From NCBI RefSeq assembly GCF_041248615.1, contig NZ_CP158426.1: DNA of 64,000 nt; one strand, given 5' to 3'. This DNA comes from Escherichia coli. Its GTDB lineage: Bacteria; Pseudomonadota; Gammaproteobacteria; Enterobacterales; Enterobacteriaceae. This document shows positions 28,931 to 37,900 of this stretch, in pieces; within the stretch, counting starts at the first letter, position 1, and each line of letters opens with the position of its first letter. The position numbers were made by a program.

Positions 28931-31900
28931 TGATAATCCTCCCGCCAGAAGAATAAAACATAGCCCGGTATACAAGTGTATACCGGGCTTTTTTGATCAA
29001 AATTCCATTTTCACCGTGAATTGCACTTCACGCGGATCGCCAATCTGATTCCCCAGATTATTTGTGGCGATGGAAGAGGTGTAATACGTTTTATCAAACA
29101 GGTTTTTGACGTTTAATTGCAGTGTGACCGGATACTGCAATTTCATTTTGTATGCGGCGAAGGCATCGGCAACGAAATAGCCTGGCAGATAATAGTCAGC
29201 CCCATTGGTTGCCGAACGACGGCTTACGCCATGTCCACCACCGCCAAACGTCAGTGTGTTATTGCCTGGCATGTTATGAATGTCATAGGTCAGGAATAGC
29301 GAACCGGTATGACGAGGAACATTCGGCAATGGTTTCCCTGCATAATCAGGATCCTCCAGAACCTTAGCATCGGTATAGCCGTAGCTGGCAATGATATTAA
29401 TGTTTTCAGTTAATGCTCCCGCAAGGTCGACTTCTACCCCTCTTGAACGAACGCGGCCTGCCGTTTTGGCGATGGTTTCATCACCAATACTTTCGGTATA
29501 CAACACGTTACGTTTATGGATATCAAACAGCGCAATATCTGCGGTTATACCATCGAACAGCTCGAATTTTGCCCCGACTTCGTAAGCATTAGATGATTCC
29601 GGTGGAAGATCTCCGATGTAGCTGGCAATTGACGATTGCGGCATAAATGTTTGCGAATAATTAGCAAATAAGGATACCGATGGCGTCAGTTTGTAGACTA
29701 ACCCCAGTTTGGGCGTCCATTGTTCATCGCGGCTGTCAGTATTGACATTAAAAGGACGGCCTTTACCCGCATACTGCGTGTAATACTGATAGCGGATCCC
29801 GGCGACGGCAATCCAGTTATCGGTCAGATAGAGCGCGTCCTGTGCATAAGCTGAGTAGCTCTCCTGTTTGATCGTCTGATCGCTGTCCGACGCCGAGACA
29901 GTTGTGCATTTGCTGGTATTGCCGTAAACAGGGTTGTAGATATTGAAATCTTTAGCGTTTTTACAGCGAATCATATCTGTGCGCAGAAGATCATAATATT
30001 CATATGACACCCCACCCAGAATCTCATTATAGAACCCAGCAATATCAACATTCCCTTGCAGATCCGCACGAGTAGAATGCATACGCTGGGTAGATCCCTG
30101 AGTTGCATCAACACGCCGTGTCAGCGTTCCTGTCGTTGCATCATACGCGGTAACACGAGCCTGATTGTCGCTGTATTTATCCTGGCTGTAGCTGTAATCA
30201 AAGCGCGCTGTCCACTGGCTATTGAGATGATATTCTGCGTTGAGTTGCGCCAGATCGGACTGACCATTTGTAATATTAAACGGTTCGTCAAAACGTATTT
30301 TTCGATCAACGTTTACGGGCTGTTTCGTCGTAAGGTCGAAAATCGTTCCACGATCGAACGGAGTTTTATAGTCCCGATGGGAATAGAGCATGGTTACTGT
30401 TGCATTATCACCAAACCAGGTGAGTGACGGGGCAATAAATGTACTGCGCTCTTTACCGAAGTTTCGCCAGTAATCTTCATCCTGCACTTCCCCCGTCAGG
30501 CGGTATGCCAGCTGAGTGCCTTCAATGGGACCTGTGATATCAAGTTGCCCAGTGCCTCCGCCAAAACTGGAGGACGTGGCTGAGACAGAACCATGGAATG
30601 TTTTTTCCGGGCGCTTGGTCACGACGTTAATCAATCCACCAGGATCGAGAATGCCATACAGCGTGGAGGCCGGACCTTTTAGCACTTCCACACGTTCTGT
30701 GGCGGCGTTGAAACTGCGAGGAAGTACAGTTCGCAGGCCGTTGGTCATGATGGAGCCATCCCGGTTAGCACCAAACCCACGACGTACAAAGGCGTCCTGA
30801 GTTCCGCCTAATGTATTGGTCTGTACCACGTTACTGACGTTATAAAGCGCTTCATCCAGCGTCGTCGCATTCTGATTTTCCAGAACCTGATCGCTAACCG
30901 TATTGACCACCTGCGGGATATCCAGCATCGGCATATCGGTTAATGTCGCCGTGGAAGTGCTCAGAGGTTGATAACCATCGGTCGCCTCAGTTGCGGTATT
31001 TGCATCCGCTGTAACAGTGATTGTTTCGCCATCTTTGGTCGTTACAGAGTCTGTTGCATAAATCATCGGTGCCGCAAAAAGCAGTGAAAAGAGCGCCCGA
31101 CCTTTGAGTCCTGAGAATGAAGGTGTGAACATAGCCATTTAGTCTGTTATCCCAAAAACTCGCGGATTGTCGCGAGTGAAAATTGTTTCTTATTGCTCAC
31201 TAAGCACTATCCGTTTGTTATTTCGCCATCGGATATGTAATTGAGAATCATTCAATCATGCGGTAATGTAGTAGTAAATGAGAAATAACAAAAAATTGCT
31301 ACATGTGTTTTTATGAGAGGTTAATGCAATTCAATTGATGATAATTTATTAATATTTAATGGTTTTATTTTTATCTTTAAAAATATTTCACCTGTTATTT
31401 ACCTTGTTTTTGTATGGCTTTTAACTTCTTGACTACTACATTTTGTGGCGTCAAACTCTCAAAAGAGAATGAGTTTTATTTTTGTTTGTCTTTGATTAAG
31501 TTGGCGTACACGTGGCACATAACGCAAAAGGGCAGGGGCTGATCCTCGACAATGTTTCTGCCGGGTATCACACGAAAATCATTGTTGATGGCGTTTCTTT
31601 CTCCGTTCCCACAGAAAAAATGACCGTTCTGGTTGGGGCAAACGGCTGTGGAAAGTCGACGTTGCTCAGCACCATTGCACGTATCTTGCAACCTATGGGC
31701 GGCTCGATATTGCTGGATGGTAAAGCGATTCACGAGCAACCAACGAAAGCGTTATCCCGTAGACTTGGGATCTTGCCGCAGTCGCCATTATTGCCGGAGG
31801 GCTTAACCGTTTATGAACTGGTGTCGCGTGGGCGTTTTCCCTGGCAAAATTTCATACGTCAATGGAGCGACGCCGACGAGCAGGCGGTAGAAGAGGCCCT

Positions 31901-34900: not shown

Positions 34901-37900
34901 ACGGTATCGGTGATTCAGGCAAATCAGGGAAAAATTAATGTGATGCATAGCTATCATTCGCTGGGGCGGGTATTACGCGATGCTGGTTTTCGCTTTCCGC
35001 CGCTGATTGAGAGCATTCCTGAAGGTGGGCGAATGGATGTGAGCGCAGAGCGTTTACCTGAACTGGATGCCGATTTTGTTTTTGCAACCTGGCGCGGTGA
35101 CACCGGTGGTAAACCTCAGGATGAGCTGGCAGCAATGGAAAAAGTCATGCCGGGATGGTGTCAGTTTCTGACGGCCTGTCGTTCCGGGCGCTATGTGCTG
35201 ATTTCTCGTGAAGAGGCGATTTCTAACTCCTTTGCATCTCTGGGGCTGATGGCTGCGCAGATACAATCACAAATTGCGGGACGACCTCTACCGGAGGCTA
35301 AATGATCCAGAAAGACAAAACGCGGGTTGATATTTATGGTGAGCGTTTTCGCACTCGCGCGAGTCAGTTAACGCCTGGGTTAAGAACTGTCGCAAGCTAC
35401 ATTAATGAGCATCGTGAAGTGGTACTCGAGCAAACGGCGATGGAAATTGCGGCCACGTTGAACACTTCCGATGCCACAGTTATCAGGGCTATACAGGCTC
35501 TGGGGTTTGCCGGGCTGCGTGATCTGAAACGCACACTGGAACAGTGGCTTGGTCCAGCCCTTAGTTCCAGCGAAAAGATGTCTACGACGGTGAGTAACTT
35601 GACGAGCGATGTTAACACCGCAATCGACTTTGTTCTTGAAGGGCATTTGTATACTTGTAATGTCCTGTCAGAGCCTGAAAACCGCCACGCGCTTGCGCAA
35701 GCTGTAGCGTTGTTGGTGCAGGCACGGCAAGTCGCTATTTTTGGCATTGGCGCTTCGGGTATCCTGGCGGACTATACCGCACGACTATTCAACCGCATAG
35801 GTTTGCCTGCCACGGCACTAAACCGTACGGGTATTGGCCTTGCCGAGCAACTGATCGCGCTTCAACGTGGCGATGTTCTGATCATGATGGCGCAAAAATC
35901 TGCGCACCGGGAAGGGCTGACAACGCTTCGTGAGGCGAGGCGGCTGGGGATCCCTGTTATTTTGCTGACAAACGCGCTGGATTCACGTTTTAGCAAAGAC
36001 GCCAGTATCGTGATTCATGTTCCGCGCGGGGATGAAAAGGGGAAAACGCCACTACATGGTACGGTATTGTTGTGCCTGGAAATGATTGTTTGGTCGGTGG
36101 CTTCCGCGATGCCGCAGCGTGCGGTTAAAACCATTAAGCGAATTAACGATTTCCATCGGGGTTTGAAAACGGGAAGAAAGAATGGCTAATCTGACCTGAG
36201 GCCGGTAGCAACACCGGCCTCTTTTCAGGAATGTTAAATCCCCGGTTGCAGAATACGGATATTCATCTCCAGCACGTCGCCTTTTACGGCTTCGCTGTAC
36301 GCCTTCATGTGCGGGGTTTGCAGATGCGCTTCAAGATGCGCGATGCTTTCCCACTGCTCAATCATCACGATAGAATCCGGTGCCATAGACTGGAAACTCA
36401 CGCCAGCAGCGCAATCCACCATTGGCGCATAGCCGTGGCAACCTTCTTCTTTCAGTACGGTTGGAACGATTTTAGCAAACTGATCCAATACTGCCTGACG
36501 GTGATGTTGACCAGGACGAGTACGGATTTCTGCGATTACGGTAAGCATGGTTAACTCCTTCTAAAGCCTGAGCTCTAGTTAACCAAAAATTTCCACAAGA
36601 TGCTTGCGATATTCTTCAGTATAGCGGGGAACATCAGGCATTTTTATCACGTCATTAGCGATAAATGTCGGCAGCGGTTCCATGCCAAGGAATTGGTTTG
36701 CTTTATGGAACGGCAGATACACACCGTCAACGCCAACGCCGTGGAAGAACTGATCTTTTTCGGTGAAGGCTTCCATTGGTGCGTTCCAGGTCAGAGAAAG
36801 CATATATTTTTTGCCCTGTACCAGGCCGCCGGAACCGTATTTTTTCGACGGATCTTTGCGGGTACGACCATCGCTGGCATACAGCGTCCCGTGACCTTCG
36901 GTGAATACATCATCAATGTATTTTTTCACTGTCCACGGCGCGCCCATCCACCAGCCTGGCATCTGCCAAATCACCACATCAGCCCAGAGAAAGTTTTGTA
37001 CTTCCGCTTTGACATCGTAGTCGCTGTCGGCGCGAACGATGCGGACATCATGCCCGAGGTCGCGCAGTGTGCCATCCGCGACTTCGGTCAGGGTGTCGTT
37101 CAGTTGACCATTGGAGTGGGCGAATTTTTTCGCGCCGTTGATAATCAGGATGTTGCTCATTTTTTAACCTCAAGGTGAGACGTTTGTCGACTATAGTACG
37201 TCACAGAGCGGTACGGTGAAATTAGCAAAATGTGCAAAGTCTTTTGCTAATTTAGCAAAAGTCTGATCTTGCTCTGACTCACCGATGCAGGATAAATATT
37301 TTCTGAAAATGACAATACTGATAGCAATTTCTCATCATTCCAACTAGCACAGGGTTAATTTACAACGTTGGTGTGGACTTTCTGCGAGTTGATAATTGTG
37401 GTGATGCTGCCAACTTACTGATTTAGTGTATGATGGTGTTTTTGAGGTGCTCCAGTGGCTTCTGTTTCTATCAGCTGTCCCTCCTGTTCAGCTACTGACG
37501 GGGTGGTGCGTAACGGCAAAAGCACTGCCGGACATCAGCGCTATCTCTGCTCTCACTGCCGTAAAACATGGCAACTGCAGTTCACTTACACCGCTTCTCA
37601 ACCCGGTACGCACCAGAAAATCATTGATATGGCCATGAATGGCGTTGGATGCCGGGCAACCGCCCGCATTATGGGCGTTGGCCTCAACACGATTTTCCGC
37701 CATTTAAAAAACTCAGGCCGCAGTCGGTAACCTCGCGCATACAGCCGGGCAGTGACGTCATCGTCTGCGCGGAAATGGACGAACAGTGGGGATACGTCGG
37801 GGCTAAATCGCGCCAGCGCTGGCTGTTTTACGCGTATGACAGGCTCCGGAAGACGGTTGTTGCGCACGTATTCGGTGAACGCACTATGGCGACGCTGGGG

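What the first reader, a model, noticed from the sequence alone, without database searches (positions are those of the whole stretch)
28962..36226. About 7.2 kb TonB-dependent siderophore-type uptake island between parE and ygiN
Six genes lie between two strong bidirectional terminator hairpins: a TonB-dependent receptor (TonB box ETITVTA), then divergently an ATPase, two FecCD-type permeases, a periplasmic binding protein and a regulator, joined by ATGA start/stop overlaps into one operon. From memory, parE and ygiN are adjacent in K-12 MG1655, so this is an accessory insertion; it resembles the strain-variable iron-transport loci of E. coli such as Fit, though I cannot confirm identity. There is no integrase, tRNA or direct repeat at the borders, and the junctions sit at terminators, so the acquisition mechanism is not evident. 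ExbB/ExbD, needed to energise the receptor, are encoded about 21 kb away in the same window.
Basis: partly seen in the sequence, partly recalled or inferred. Interest (0 to 1): 0.55.

Follow-up and report, generated by a model that had tools for sequence, protein, structure and literature searches.

The report
Known Fit iron-uptake locus of E. coli
The six genes between parE and ygiN are the already published Fit iron-uptake system (fitABCDE plus its repressor fitR), present in about a third of E. coli genomes and probably inherited and later lost in K-12-like strains rather than recently inserted.

Summary
Window 28934-36233 (7,300 bp) replaces the 47-bp parE-ygiN spacer of K-12. It carries fitA (TonB-dependent receptor, minus strand) and, divergently, fitB, fitC, fitD, fitE and fitR.

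It is the published Fit system:
- All 17 published fit primers map to the expected genes.
- FitE is 295/297 identical to the FitE crystal structure (3BE5/3BE6).
- A 2026 paper already lists "ygiN..parE = fit operon".

Among 5,426 complete E. coli genomes, 1,870 carry the locus, always whole. 3,268 have the K-12-type empty site. 409 carry a different 8.3-kb cassette there, about 122 of them in tandem with fit.

The "insertion" reading is probably the wrong way round:
- The same cluster lies between parE and ygiN in another Escherichia species and in Enterobacter and Lelliottia.
- Its synonymous divergence tracks the flanking core genes.
- Its GC content is ordinary, and there are no mobility genes.

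Inherited presence, repeated loss and allele exchange by flanking homologous recombination fit best.

The substrate remains unknown; published work excludes enterobactin. New here are invariant promoter blocks, including an inverted ACTACTACA pair at both -35 regions.

Already known; low interest.

The parts
27041..28933 (+). parE, the left core flank. Its last codon and stop read GTC TGA here and GTT TAA in K-12.
28962..28989 (.). 12-bp GC-rich hairpin with U-rich tails on both strands. It is a shared terminator for the convergent parE and fitA genes, and it stays next to fitA in the tandem arrangement.
   Evidence: -21.8/-22.3 kcal/mol, z about -6.4/-6.6
28997..31138 (-). fitA, a TonB-dependent outer-membrane receptor of 713 aa. 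TonB box ETITVTA at residues 38-44, Plug domain 72-168, barrel 240-680.
   Evidence: TIGR01783 372.8 > 223.5; published qPCR primers match exactly
31139..31511 (.). Divergent fitA/fitB promoter region, 30% GC. It corresponds to the published EMSA fragment bound by FitR; the published promoter primers map to 31160-31181 and 31495-31518.
   Evidence: PMC2593036
31237..31255 (.). Fur-box-like site 1, GTAATTGAGAATCATTCAA (12/19 to consensus). It lies in a block conserved across 12 genera (18 of its 19 bases invariant) and overlaps the inferred -10 of the fitA promoter.
31267..31275 (-). ACTACTACA motif directly after a TTTACT -35-like hexamer of the fitA promoter. Invariant in 12 genera. Candidate FitR operator half-site (inference).
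   Evidence: I21
31432..31440 (+). ACTACTACA motif directly after the TTGACT -35-like hexamer of the fitB promoter. It is the inverted partner of 31267-31275 and is invariant in 12 genera.
   Evidence: I21
31465..31483 (.). Fur-box-like site 2, GAGAATGAGTTTTATTTTT (13/19), in a conserved block just upstream of fitB.
31512..32321 (+). fitB, the ABC ATPase (GTG start). Its best family match is FecE, below the cut-off.
32318..33301 (+). fitC, a FecCD-type permease. Its start overlaps the fitB stop (ATGA).
33298..34347 (+). fitD, the second FecCD-type permease. The start is either ATG 33298 (ATGA overlap) or ATG 33310 (RefSeq).
34358..35305 (+). fitE, the periplasmic binding protein. 295/297 identical to PDB 3BE5/3BE6 (FitE).
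35302..36189 (+). fitR, an RpiR/MurR-family repressor (HTH_6 plus SIS). Its start overlaps the fitE stop (ATGA).
   Evidence: PMC2593036
36198..36221 (.). GC-rich hairpin (9 bp as folded; GAGGCCGGU...ACCGGCCUC) followed by UUUU after fitR. The same hairpin closes the alternative cassette in strains that lack fit.
36234..36548 (-). ygiN, the right core flank.
57206..58372 (+). exbB and exbD. Core genes that, with TonB, energise all TonB-dependent receptors. They are not part of the variable locus.

Best explanation
This is the Fit iron-uptake system of E. coli (fitA, then divergently fitBCDE-fitR).

How it works. FitA is a 22-strand-type TonB-dependent outer-membrane receptor that binds a ferric chelate and passes it into the periplasm using TonB-ExbB-ExbD. 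FitE, a cluster-A periplasmic binding protein, carries the chelate to the FitC/FitD permease heterodimer, which is powered by the FitB ATPase. This mechanism is inferred from the families, not shown here.

Regulation. Two divergent promoters in the 373-bp AT-rich spacer are repressed independently by Fur-Fe2+ and by FitR, an RpiR-type HTH plus SIS protein encoded last in the operon. That is published experimental work.

Substrate. No siderophore biosynthesis genes accompany the locus, so the substrate is most likely a siderophore made by another organism. Its identity is unknown; secondary sources report that it is not enterobactin.

Evolution (inference). The locus is old at the parE-ygiN site. 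It is shared with another Escherichia species and with Enterobacter and Lelliottia, and has been lost from K-12-like lineages. The site now has four states: empty, fit, an unrelated 8.3-kb cassette, or both in tandem. These are exchanged by homologous recombination in the flanking core genes, which is why no integrase, tRNA or repeat marks the borders.
For: Identity:
- All 17 published fit primers map to the expected genes and orientations with 0-3 mismatches, while three control primers do not match (PMC2593036).
- FitE is 295/297 identical to PDB 3BE5/3BE6, which PMC10553834 names Ec-FitE.
- PMC12928451 lists genomic region "ygiN..parE = fit operon, 7193 bp".

Families:
- FitA passes TIGR01783 (372.8 > 223.5) and has Plug and barrel domains.
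- FitB, FitC and FitD match FecE, FecC, FecD and FhuB-type models.
- FitE is Peripla_BP_2. FitR is HTH_6 plus SIS.

Regulation:
- FitR and Fur repression and the FitR EMSA are published (PMC2593036).
- The Fur-like boxes and -35-linked motifs are invariant across 12 genera.

Distribution:
- 1,870 of 5,426 genomes carry it, always at least 80% complete.
- 3,268 have the empty site.
- 409 carry the alternative cassette, and a tandem example was inspected.
- It is not on plasmids.

Age:
- The full order parE-fitA...fitR-ygiN-mdaB-qseC is seen in Escherichia sp. MOD1-EC7003, Enterobacter genomosp. O, Lelliottia and a related metagenome assembly. Silvania, Huaxiibacter and further Enterobacter species show one flank.
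- dS of fit genes against LF82 is 0.05-0.14, with flanks at 0.015-0.14. Against the other Escherichia species it is 0.14-0.38, with flanks at 0.09-0.37. Against Enterobacter it is saturated and not lower than the flanks.
- GC is 49.3% against 50.8% for the window.
Against: - The substrate, and therefore the exact function, is not established. FitA falls far below every substrate-specific NCBIfam cut-off.
- The original 2006 paper could not be read here, so statements about substrates rest on secondary citations.
- The direction of the gain-or-loss event is inferred. The 47-bp K-12 spacer shows only partial similarity to the island junctions (17/22 nt around the left hairpin's 5' arm), which suits insertion or deletion equally.
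- FitA of E. coli is closer to Enterobacter (about 90% aa) than to Citrobacter (about 82%), where the cluster lies elsewhere. An ancient transfer between lineages is therefore not excluded.
- The Fur boxes match the consensus only 12-13/19, which is unremarkable within the window.
Confidence: 0.9

Rival explanations
1. Recent horizontal insertion. On this reading, fit is a genomic islet acquired by pathogenic E. coli lineages from another genus and inserted into an originally empty parE-ygiN spacer.
For: - It is absent from K-12 and from 3,268 of 5,426 genomes.
- It is enriched in B2/AIEC/ExPEC strains according to PMC9409007 and PMC5907654.
- The borders are sharp, at the two stop codons.
- The site also accepts another cassette.
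Against: - There is no integrase, tRNA, direct repeat or insertion sequence at the borders.
- GC is normal.
- The same arrangement occurs in a second Escherichia species and in Enterobacter and Lelliottia.
- dS of fit genes equals that of the flanks within Escherichia and is saturated against Enterobacter.
- Island diversity within E. coli (97.3-100% identity) spans the same range as the flanking core genes.
Confidence: 0.12
2. Not a ferric-siderophore importer. On this reading, the system takes up another metal complex or cofactor, such as a Co or Cd chelate, a corrinoid, heme or a metallophore, and iron regulation is secondary.
For: - Every substrate-specific model is failed.
- PMC12928451 summarises the 2006 paper as "related to Fe2+, Co2+ and Cd2+ uptake".
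- One of the closest solved receptors is deposited as the metal-pseudopaline receptor CntO.
- The cognate regulator has a sugar-phosphate-type SIS domain, which is unusual for iron systems.
Against: - FitA passes the siderophore-receptor subfamily model, and heme and B12 models score much lower.
- Beyond its own crystal structure, FitE's nearest solved relatives are siderophore binders: YfiY, FhuD, FepB and SirA.
- Expression is Fur- and iron-repressed in E. coli and iron-starvation-induced in K. pneumoniae.
- Fur-like boxes are conserved in 12 genera.
Confidence: 0.08
3. A sub-hypothesis on the substrate: Fit imports a hydroxamate-type siderophore made by other organisms (ferrioxamine, ferrichrome or schizokinen class).
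For: - FitA's best solved and curated relatives include FoxA and FhuA, and FitE's include YfiY and FhuD.
- In Citrobacter the fit-like cluster sits next to a bona fide foxA (1403 bits > 1300 cut-off).
- In Erwinia and Pantoea a 379-aa membrane protein lies between fitE and fitR. It looked PepSY/FoxB-like by eye but had no NCBIfam hit.
- A ferrichrome/ferrioxamine-type binding protein lies nearby in Pantoea.
Against: - All the homology is below cut-offs, and the top solved receptor hit is the enantio-pyochelin receptor, which is not a hydroxamate receptor.
- Gene neighbourhood in other genera may be coincidental.
- E. coli already has FhuA and FhuE for hydroxamates.
- As far as I recall (not verifiable here), the 2006 paper found no utilisation of the common siderophores.
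Confidence: 0.25

Closest known systems
Fit system (fitABCDE, fitR) of E. coli i484 (Ouyang & Isaacson 2006, 2008) and FitE of E. coli (PDB 3BE5/3BE6)
   Same: Gene content, order, divergent promoter, position between ygiN and parE, primer-level sequence identity, and FitE 295/297 identical.
   Different: Only allelic differences: 1-3 mismatches in 5 of the 17 primers and 2 substitutions in FitE. Nothing differs structurally.
Fit orthologues at the same parE-ygiN site in Enterobacter, Lelliottia, Silvania and Huaxiibacter
   Same: The same six genes in the same order and orientation, with the same flanks wherever the contig reaches them. The promoter blocks are invariant.
   Different: - 72-90% aa identity.
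- Some species carry extra cargo between parE and fitA, for example 6.9 kb encoding a two-component system and an usher-like protein in E. wuhouensis.
Fec ferric-citrate system (FecABCDE)
   Same: A TonB-dependent receptor, a binding protein, two separate FecCD permeases and an ATPase. FitB and FitC score best against FecE and FecC.
   Different: - FecE and FecC cut-offs are not reached (284 < 375; 235 < 396), and FecA scores only 102 against 1100.
- FitA has no N-terminal signalling extension: its TonB box is at residues 38-44, directly after the signal peptide.
- Regulation is by FitR, not FecIR.
Fhu ferric-hydroxamate system (FhuA, FhuCDB) and FoxA
   Same: The same transport logic. FhuA and FoxA are among FitA's closest relatives.
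   Different: - FhuA model 231 against 803; FoxA model 163 against 1300.
- Permeases are separate rather than fused as in FhuB.
- There is a dedicated RpiR-type repressor.

Membership tests
E. coli Fit system (fitABCDE-fitR) | Six genes: fitA divergent from fitB-fitC-fitD-fitE-fitR | tested here: met
E. coli Fit system (fitABCDE-fitR) | Sequence identity with the published locus (primers for every gene and for the promoter fragment) | tested here: met
   All 17 fit primers map with 0-3 mismatches in the expected genes and orientations, and 3 control primers are absent.
E. coli Fit system (fitABCDE-fitR) | FitE identical to the crystallised FitE (3BE5/3BE6) | tested here: met
   295/297 identical over the mature protein. 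PMC10553834 names the entry Ec-FitE.
E. coli Fit system (fitABCDE-fitR) | Chromosomal position between ygiN and parE | tested here: met
   PMC12928451 GR22
E. coli Fit system (fitABCDE-fitR) | Repression by iron/Fur and by FitR; iron uptake activity | not testable with these tools
   Published for strain i484. Here there are only conserved Fur-like boxes.
TonB-dependent siderophore receptor subfamily (TIGR01783) | Whole-protein score above the curated cut-off, plus Plug, barrel and TonB box | tested here: met
   372.8 > 223.5. PF07715 and PF00593. ETITVTA at residues 38-44.
Substrate-specific receptors (FhuA, FhuE, FoxA, FecA, Fiu, FepA, CirA, IreA, BtuB, heme receptors) | Score above the equivalog cut-off | tested here: not met
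   The best are 237/884 (PRK14050), 231/803 (FhuA), 163/1300 (FoxA), 158/666 (FhuE) and 102/1100 (FecA).
Classical genomic or pathogenicity island | Integrase or transposase, tRNA or attachment-site repeats at the borders, atypical composition | tested here: not met
   No tRNA, no flanking direct repeats, no integrase ORF, GC 49.3% against 50.8%, not on plasmids.
RpiR/MurR transcription regulators (FitR) | N-terminal HTH_6 and C-terminal SIS domain | tested here: met
   PF01418 at residues 14-81 and PF01380 at 138-247. The nearest solved structures are MurR/RpiR regulators. All named equivalogs are below cut-off.

The most novel reading that the evidence does not exclude
FitR may bind the inverted, genus-invariant TT(G/T)ACTACTACA elements that overlap both -35 regions. 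Its SIS domain may sense a sugar- or phosphosugar-like molecule derived from the imported chelate. If so, Fit would be a substrate-inducible importer of an unusual, possibly glycosylated or otherwise non-classical, metallophore that no one has yet identified. A small hairpin whose position, but not sequence, is kept in the fitA leader might add a post-transcriptional layer.
Probability: 0.15. Interest if true: 0.45.

Novelty: already known. Interest (0 to 1): 0.13.

Why it matters
The practical value is modest.
- The locus is a known marker of extraintestinal and adherent-invasive E. coli, and one of the few E. coli TonB-dependent systems whose substrate is still unknown.
- "Absent from K-12" does not mean "inserted". 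This cluster has no mobility genes, keeps its position across genera and diverges like its flanks, so it behaves as an old locus being lost.
- The parE-ygiN spacer is a four-state polymorphism maintained without any mobile-element machinery.
- The invariant promoter blocks give concrete candidates for the Fur and FitR operators, which the 2008 paper left undefined.

Tried and rejected
- The original 2006 Fit paper is not in the library, so substrate statements rely on citing papers. Two further literature searches found no later substrate identification, and the term "fitABCDER" returned nothing.
- I looked for a deletion scar in the K-12 spacer to settle insertion against loss. The left 22 nt resemble the sequence around the fitA-side hairpin (17/22) and the last few nucleotides resemble the fitR-side junction, but 47 bp is too short to decide.
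- The alternative-cassette-only junction resembles the 3' end of fitR only loosely. I rejected it as evidence of a fit deletion.
- Fur boxes found by consensus matching alone are unremarkable (12-13/19; 130 sites of at least 12/19 in the window). They are kept only because they coincide with invariant alignment blocks.
- RNAalifold on the fitA leader gave a weak consensus (-4.03 kcal/mol), and single-sequence folds have modest z-scores. I make no claim of a structured RNA element.
- The plasmid search returned one hit, a 4.9-Mb record that is evidently a chromosome filed among plasmids.
- I searched for siderophore-biosynthesis genes next to fit-like clusters in 17 loci from other genera. There were no NRPS-sized ORFs, and the ten neighbours checked in one Pantoea and one Citrobacter locus showed no biosynthetic enzymes.
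- A 20-nt imperfect inverted repeat in the 3' ends of parE and ygiN (I3) is no better than many chance pairs in the same list.

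
Full report
**What is there.** The window is 100% identical to the chromosome of E. coli NRZ14408 (NZ_LT599825.1). Between parE (27041-28933, +) and ygiN (36234-36548, -) lie six ORFs:
- fitA, 28997-31138, minus strand
- fitB, 31512-32321
- fitC, 32318-33301
- fitD, 33298 (RefSeq start 33310) to 34347
- fitE, 34358-35305
- fitR, 35302-36189

Family searches give these assignments:
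- FitA is a TonB-dependent siderophore receptor (TIGR01783, 372.8 bits against a 223.5 cut-off; Plug and beta-barrel domains).
- FitB is an ABC ATPase.
- FitC and FitD are FecCD-type permeases.
- FitE is a Peripla_BP_2 binding protein.
- FitR is an HTH_6 plus SIS regulator of the RpiR/MurR family.

The string ETITVTA sits at FitA residues 38-44, directly after the signal peptide.

In K-12, parE and ygiN are separated by 47 bp. The alignments show that homology ends at the parE stop codon and resumes at the ygiN stop codon, so the variable segment is 28934-36233, 7,300 bp. exbB and exbD are at 57206-58372. No tRNA, integrase or flanking direct repeat is present.

- Three of the four operon junctions are ATGA overlaps. 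fitD and fitE are 10 nt apart.
- The left hairpin is a convincing two-way terminator (-22 kcal/mol, U-rich tails on both strands).
- The right hairpin has only four U on the fitR strand and none on the ygiN strand.

**What it is.** It is the published Fit system.
- The 2008 FitR paper (PMC2593036) describes fitA, -B, -C, -D, -E and fitR with exactly these roles and lists primers.
- All 17 fit primers map in the window to the expected genes and orientations with 0-3 mismatches. The fepA, gst and polA control primers do not match.
- FitE is 295/297 identical to PDB 3BE5/3BE6, which another paper calls Ec-FitE.
- A 2026 genome paper already lists "GR22, ygiN..parE, fit operon, 7193 bp".

**How it works.**
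- Shown by others: fit expression is repressed by Fur-iron and, independently, by FitR. FitR binds the fitA-fitB intergenic fragment. A gene annotated fitA is induced by iron starvation in K. pneumoniae. The substrate is unknown and is not enterobactin.
- Inferred from the families: FitA takes a ferric chelate across the outer membrane using TonB-ExbBD. FitE delivers it to FitCD, which is powered by FitB.
- FitA fails every substrate-specific model: FhuA 231/803, FoxA 163/1300, FhuE 158/666, FecA 102/1100. Its nearest solved relatives are mixed: the enantio-pyochelin receptor, FoxA (some entries deposited as CntO) and FhuA, all near E = 1e-44 to 1e-49. Homology therefore does not name the substrate.
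- No biosynthesis genes accompany the locus here, and none turned up next to fit-like clusters in other genera: no NRPS-sized ORFs in 17 loci, and no biosynthetic enzymes among the neighbours checked in two of them. This points to a siderophore made by other organisms.
- Weak hints toward a hydroxamate class come from three places. A genuine foxA lies beside the Citrobacter cluster. An unassigned 379-aa membrane protein and two PstS-like genes are inserted between fitE and fitR in Erwinia and Pantoea. FitE's relatives are YfiY and FhuD.

**Promoter anatomy (new here, inference).** I aligned the fitA-fitB spacer from 12 genera, from Escherichia to Erwinia and Pantoea. It is mostly unalignable AT-rich DNA interrupted by conserved, largely invariant blocks:
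- 31236-31280: TGTAATTGAGAATCATTCAA, a 12/19 Fur-like box, followed by TGTAGTAGTAAA.
- 31428-31440: CTTGACTACTACA.
- 31462-31487: AAAGAGAATGAGTTTTATTTTT, a 13/19 Fur-like box.

The two ACTACTACA copies are inverted relative to each other. Each directly follows a -35-like hexamer (TTTACT for fitA, TTGACT for fitB). They account for two of only three occurrences in 64 kb, where 0.1 is expected.

I propose the Fur-like boxes as the Fur sites and the ACTACTACA elements as FitR half-sites. By consensus score alone the Fur boxes are unremarkable.

**Distribution.** Among 5,426 complete E. coli genomes:
- 1,870 (34.5%) carry the locus, always at least 80% complete, at 97.3-100% identity, on chromosomes and not on true plasmids.
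- 3,268 have the K-12-type empty site.
- 409 carry an unrelated 8.3-kb cassette at the same site. It encodes a DUF2608 protein, a porin, a phytase-like esterase, a carbohydrate kinase, a SIS protein, an ADP-ribosylglycohydrolase, a GntR regulator and an MFS transporter.

By arithmetic, about 122 genomes carry both in the order parE-cassette-fit-ygiN. One example was inspected.

Carriers include:
- B2 strains (LF82, ST131, ATCC 25922, a Nissle derivative, O127:H6)
- O157:H7

This agrees with the published B2/AIEC association.

**Insertion or loss?** A scan of one genome per species found the same six-gene cluster in 39 loci.
- The full order parE-fitA...fitR-ygiN-mdaB-qseC is seen in a second Escherichia species (MOD1-EC7003), Enterobacter genomosp. 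O, Lelliottia and a related metagenome assembly.
- Silvania, Huaxiibacter and further Enterobacter species show parE or the ygiN side as far as their contigs reach.
- In Citrobacter, Kosakonia, Kluyvera, Yokenella, Erwinia and Pantoea the cluster lies elsewhere.

Synonymous divergence of fit genes tracks the flanks:

| Comparison | dS, fit genes | dS, flanking genes |
|---|---|---|
| LF82 (B2) | 0.05-0.14 | 0.015-0.14 |
| Other Escherichia species | 0.14-0.38 | 0.09-0.37 |
| Enterobacter | saturated | 0.8-1.8 |

GC content is ordinary: 49.3% for the island, 50.3% for its coding parts, 50.8% for the window.

The simplest reading is an old resident locus, lost repeatedly, with the four alleles shuffled by homologous recombination in the conserved flanks. 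That also accounts for the missing mobility signatures.

This remains an inference. The K-12 spacer is too short to show a scar. E. coli FitA is also closer to Enterobacter than to Citrobacter, which leaves room for an ancient transfer.

**Verdict.** The locus is already known and of low interest. The residual open question is the substrate and the ligand of FitR's SIS domain.

Noticed in passing
L008 9160-17475 (E. coli WS3294A); L049 9001-24640 (FDAARGOS_1286): The parE-ygiN site has a third and a fourth state. One is an unrelated 8.3-kb cassette encoding a DUF2608 protein, a porin, a phytase-like esterase, a carbohydrate kinase, a SIS protein, an ADP-ribosylglycohydrolase, a GntR regulator and an MFS transporter, found in 409 of 5,426 genomes. 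The other, in about 122 of those, is that cassette in tandem with fit. The cassette ends in the same hairpin as the fitR-ygiN junction. Its function is unknown.
   Followed up: partly
window 31267-31275 (-) and 31432-31440 (+): An inverted pair of ACTACTACA motifs sits next to the two -35-like hexamers and is invariant from Escherichia to Pantoea. There are 3 copies in the window against 0.1 expected. They are candidate FitR operator half-sites.
   Followed up: partly
window 31159-31178 and 31208-31236 (fitA leader, minus strand): Two small hairpins lie in the fitA 5' leader. The one about 20-40 nt upstream of the start codon forms in most of 12 genera with different stem sequences. The upstream one shows compensatory changes at 6 pairs. 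The energies and z-scores are modest.
   Followed up: partly
window 37400-38167: An IS1 copy lies between mdaB and qseC. Compared with K-12, roughly 350 bp including most of ygiZ is missing, and only the last ~70 bp of ygiZ remains.
   Followed up: partly
window 13792-17405: An IS3-family element (16177-17405) truncates the fimbrial usher gene of the yqi-type fimbrial cluster. RefSeq marks the usher as a pseudogene.
   Followed up: no
window 41364-41473: ygiV and ygiS are only about 108 bp apart. From memory, the mqsR-mqsA toxin-antitoxin pair lies between them in K-12, and it is absent here. Strain EC42405 (L007) shows the same adjacency.
   Followed up: no
window 57206-57940: RefSeq gives the exbB gene the product name 'tol-pal system-associated acyl-CoA thioesterase', which from memory belongs to YbgC. 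This looks like an annotation error in the record.
   Followed up: no
L013 12130-18987 (Enterobacter wuhouensis); also L016, L040, L030: In several Enterobacter species extra cargo sits between parE and fitA. In L013 it is a LuxR-type response regulator, a 1,050-aa hybrid sensor kinase, a 173-aa protein and a 707-aa usher-like protein. The parE side of fit is therefore a variable spot outside E. coli as well.
   Followed up: partly
L023 12958-15066; L037 2600-5666; L047 2602-5668: In Citrobacter a true foxA ferrioxamine receptor gene lies convergent to the fitA homologue. In Erwinia and Pantoea a 379-aa membrane protein with no NCBIfam hit and two PstS-like binding-protein genes are inserted between fitE and fitR.
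   Followed up: partly
window 28904-28923 and 36265-36284: A 20-nt, 85% complementary inverted repeat lies in the 3' ends of parE and ygiN and brackets the variable site. It is no stronger than many other chance pairs in the same scan.
   Followed up: no
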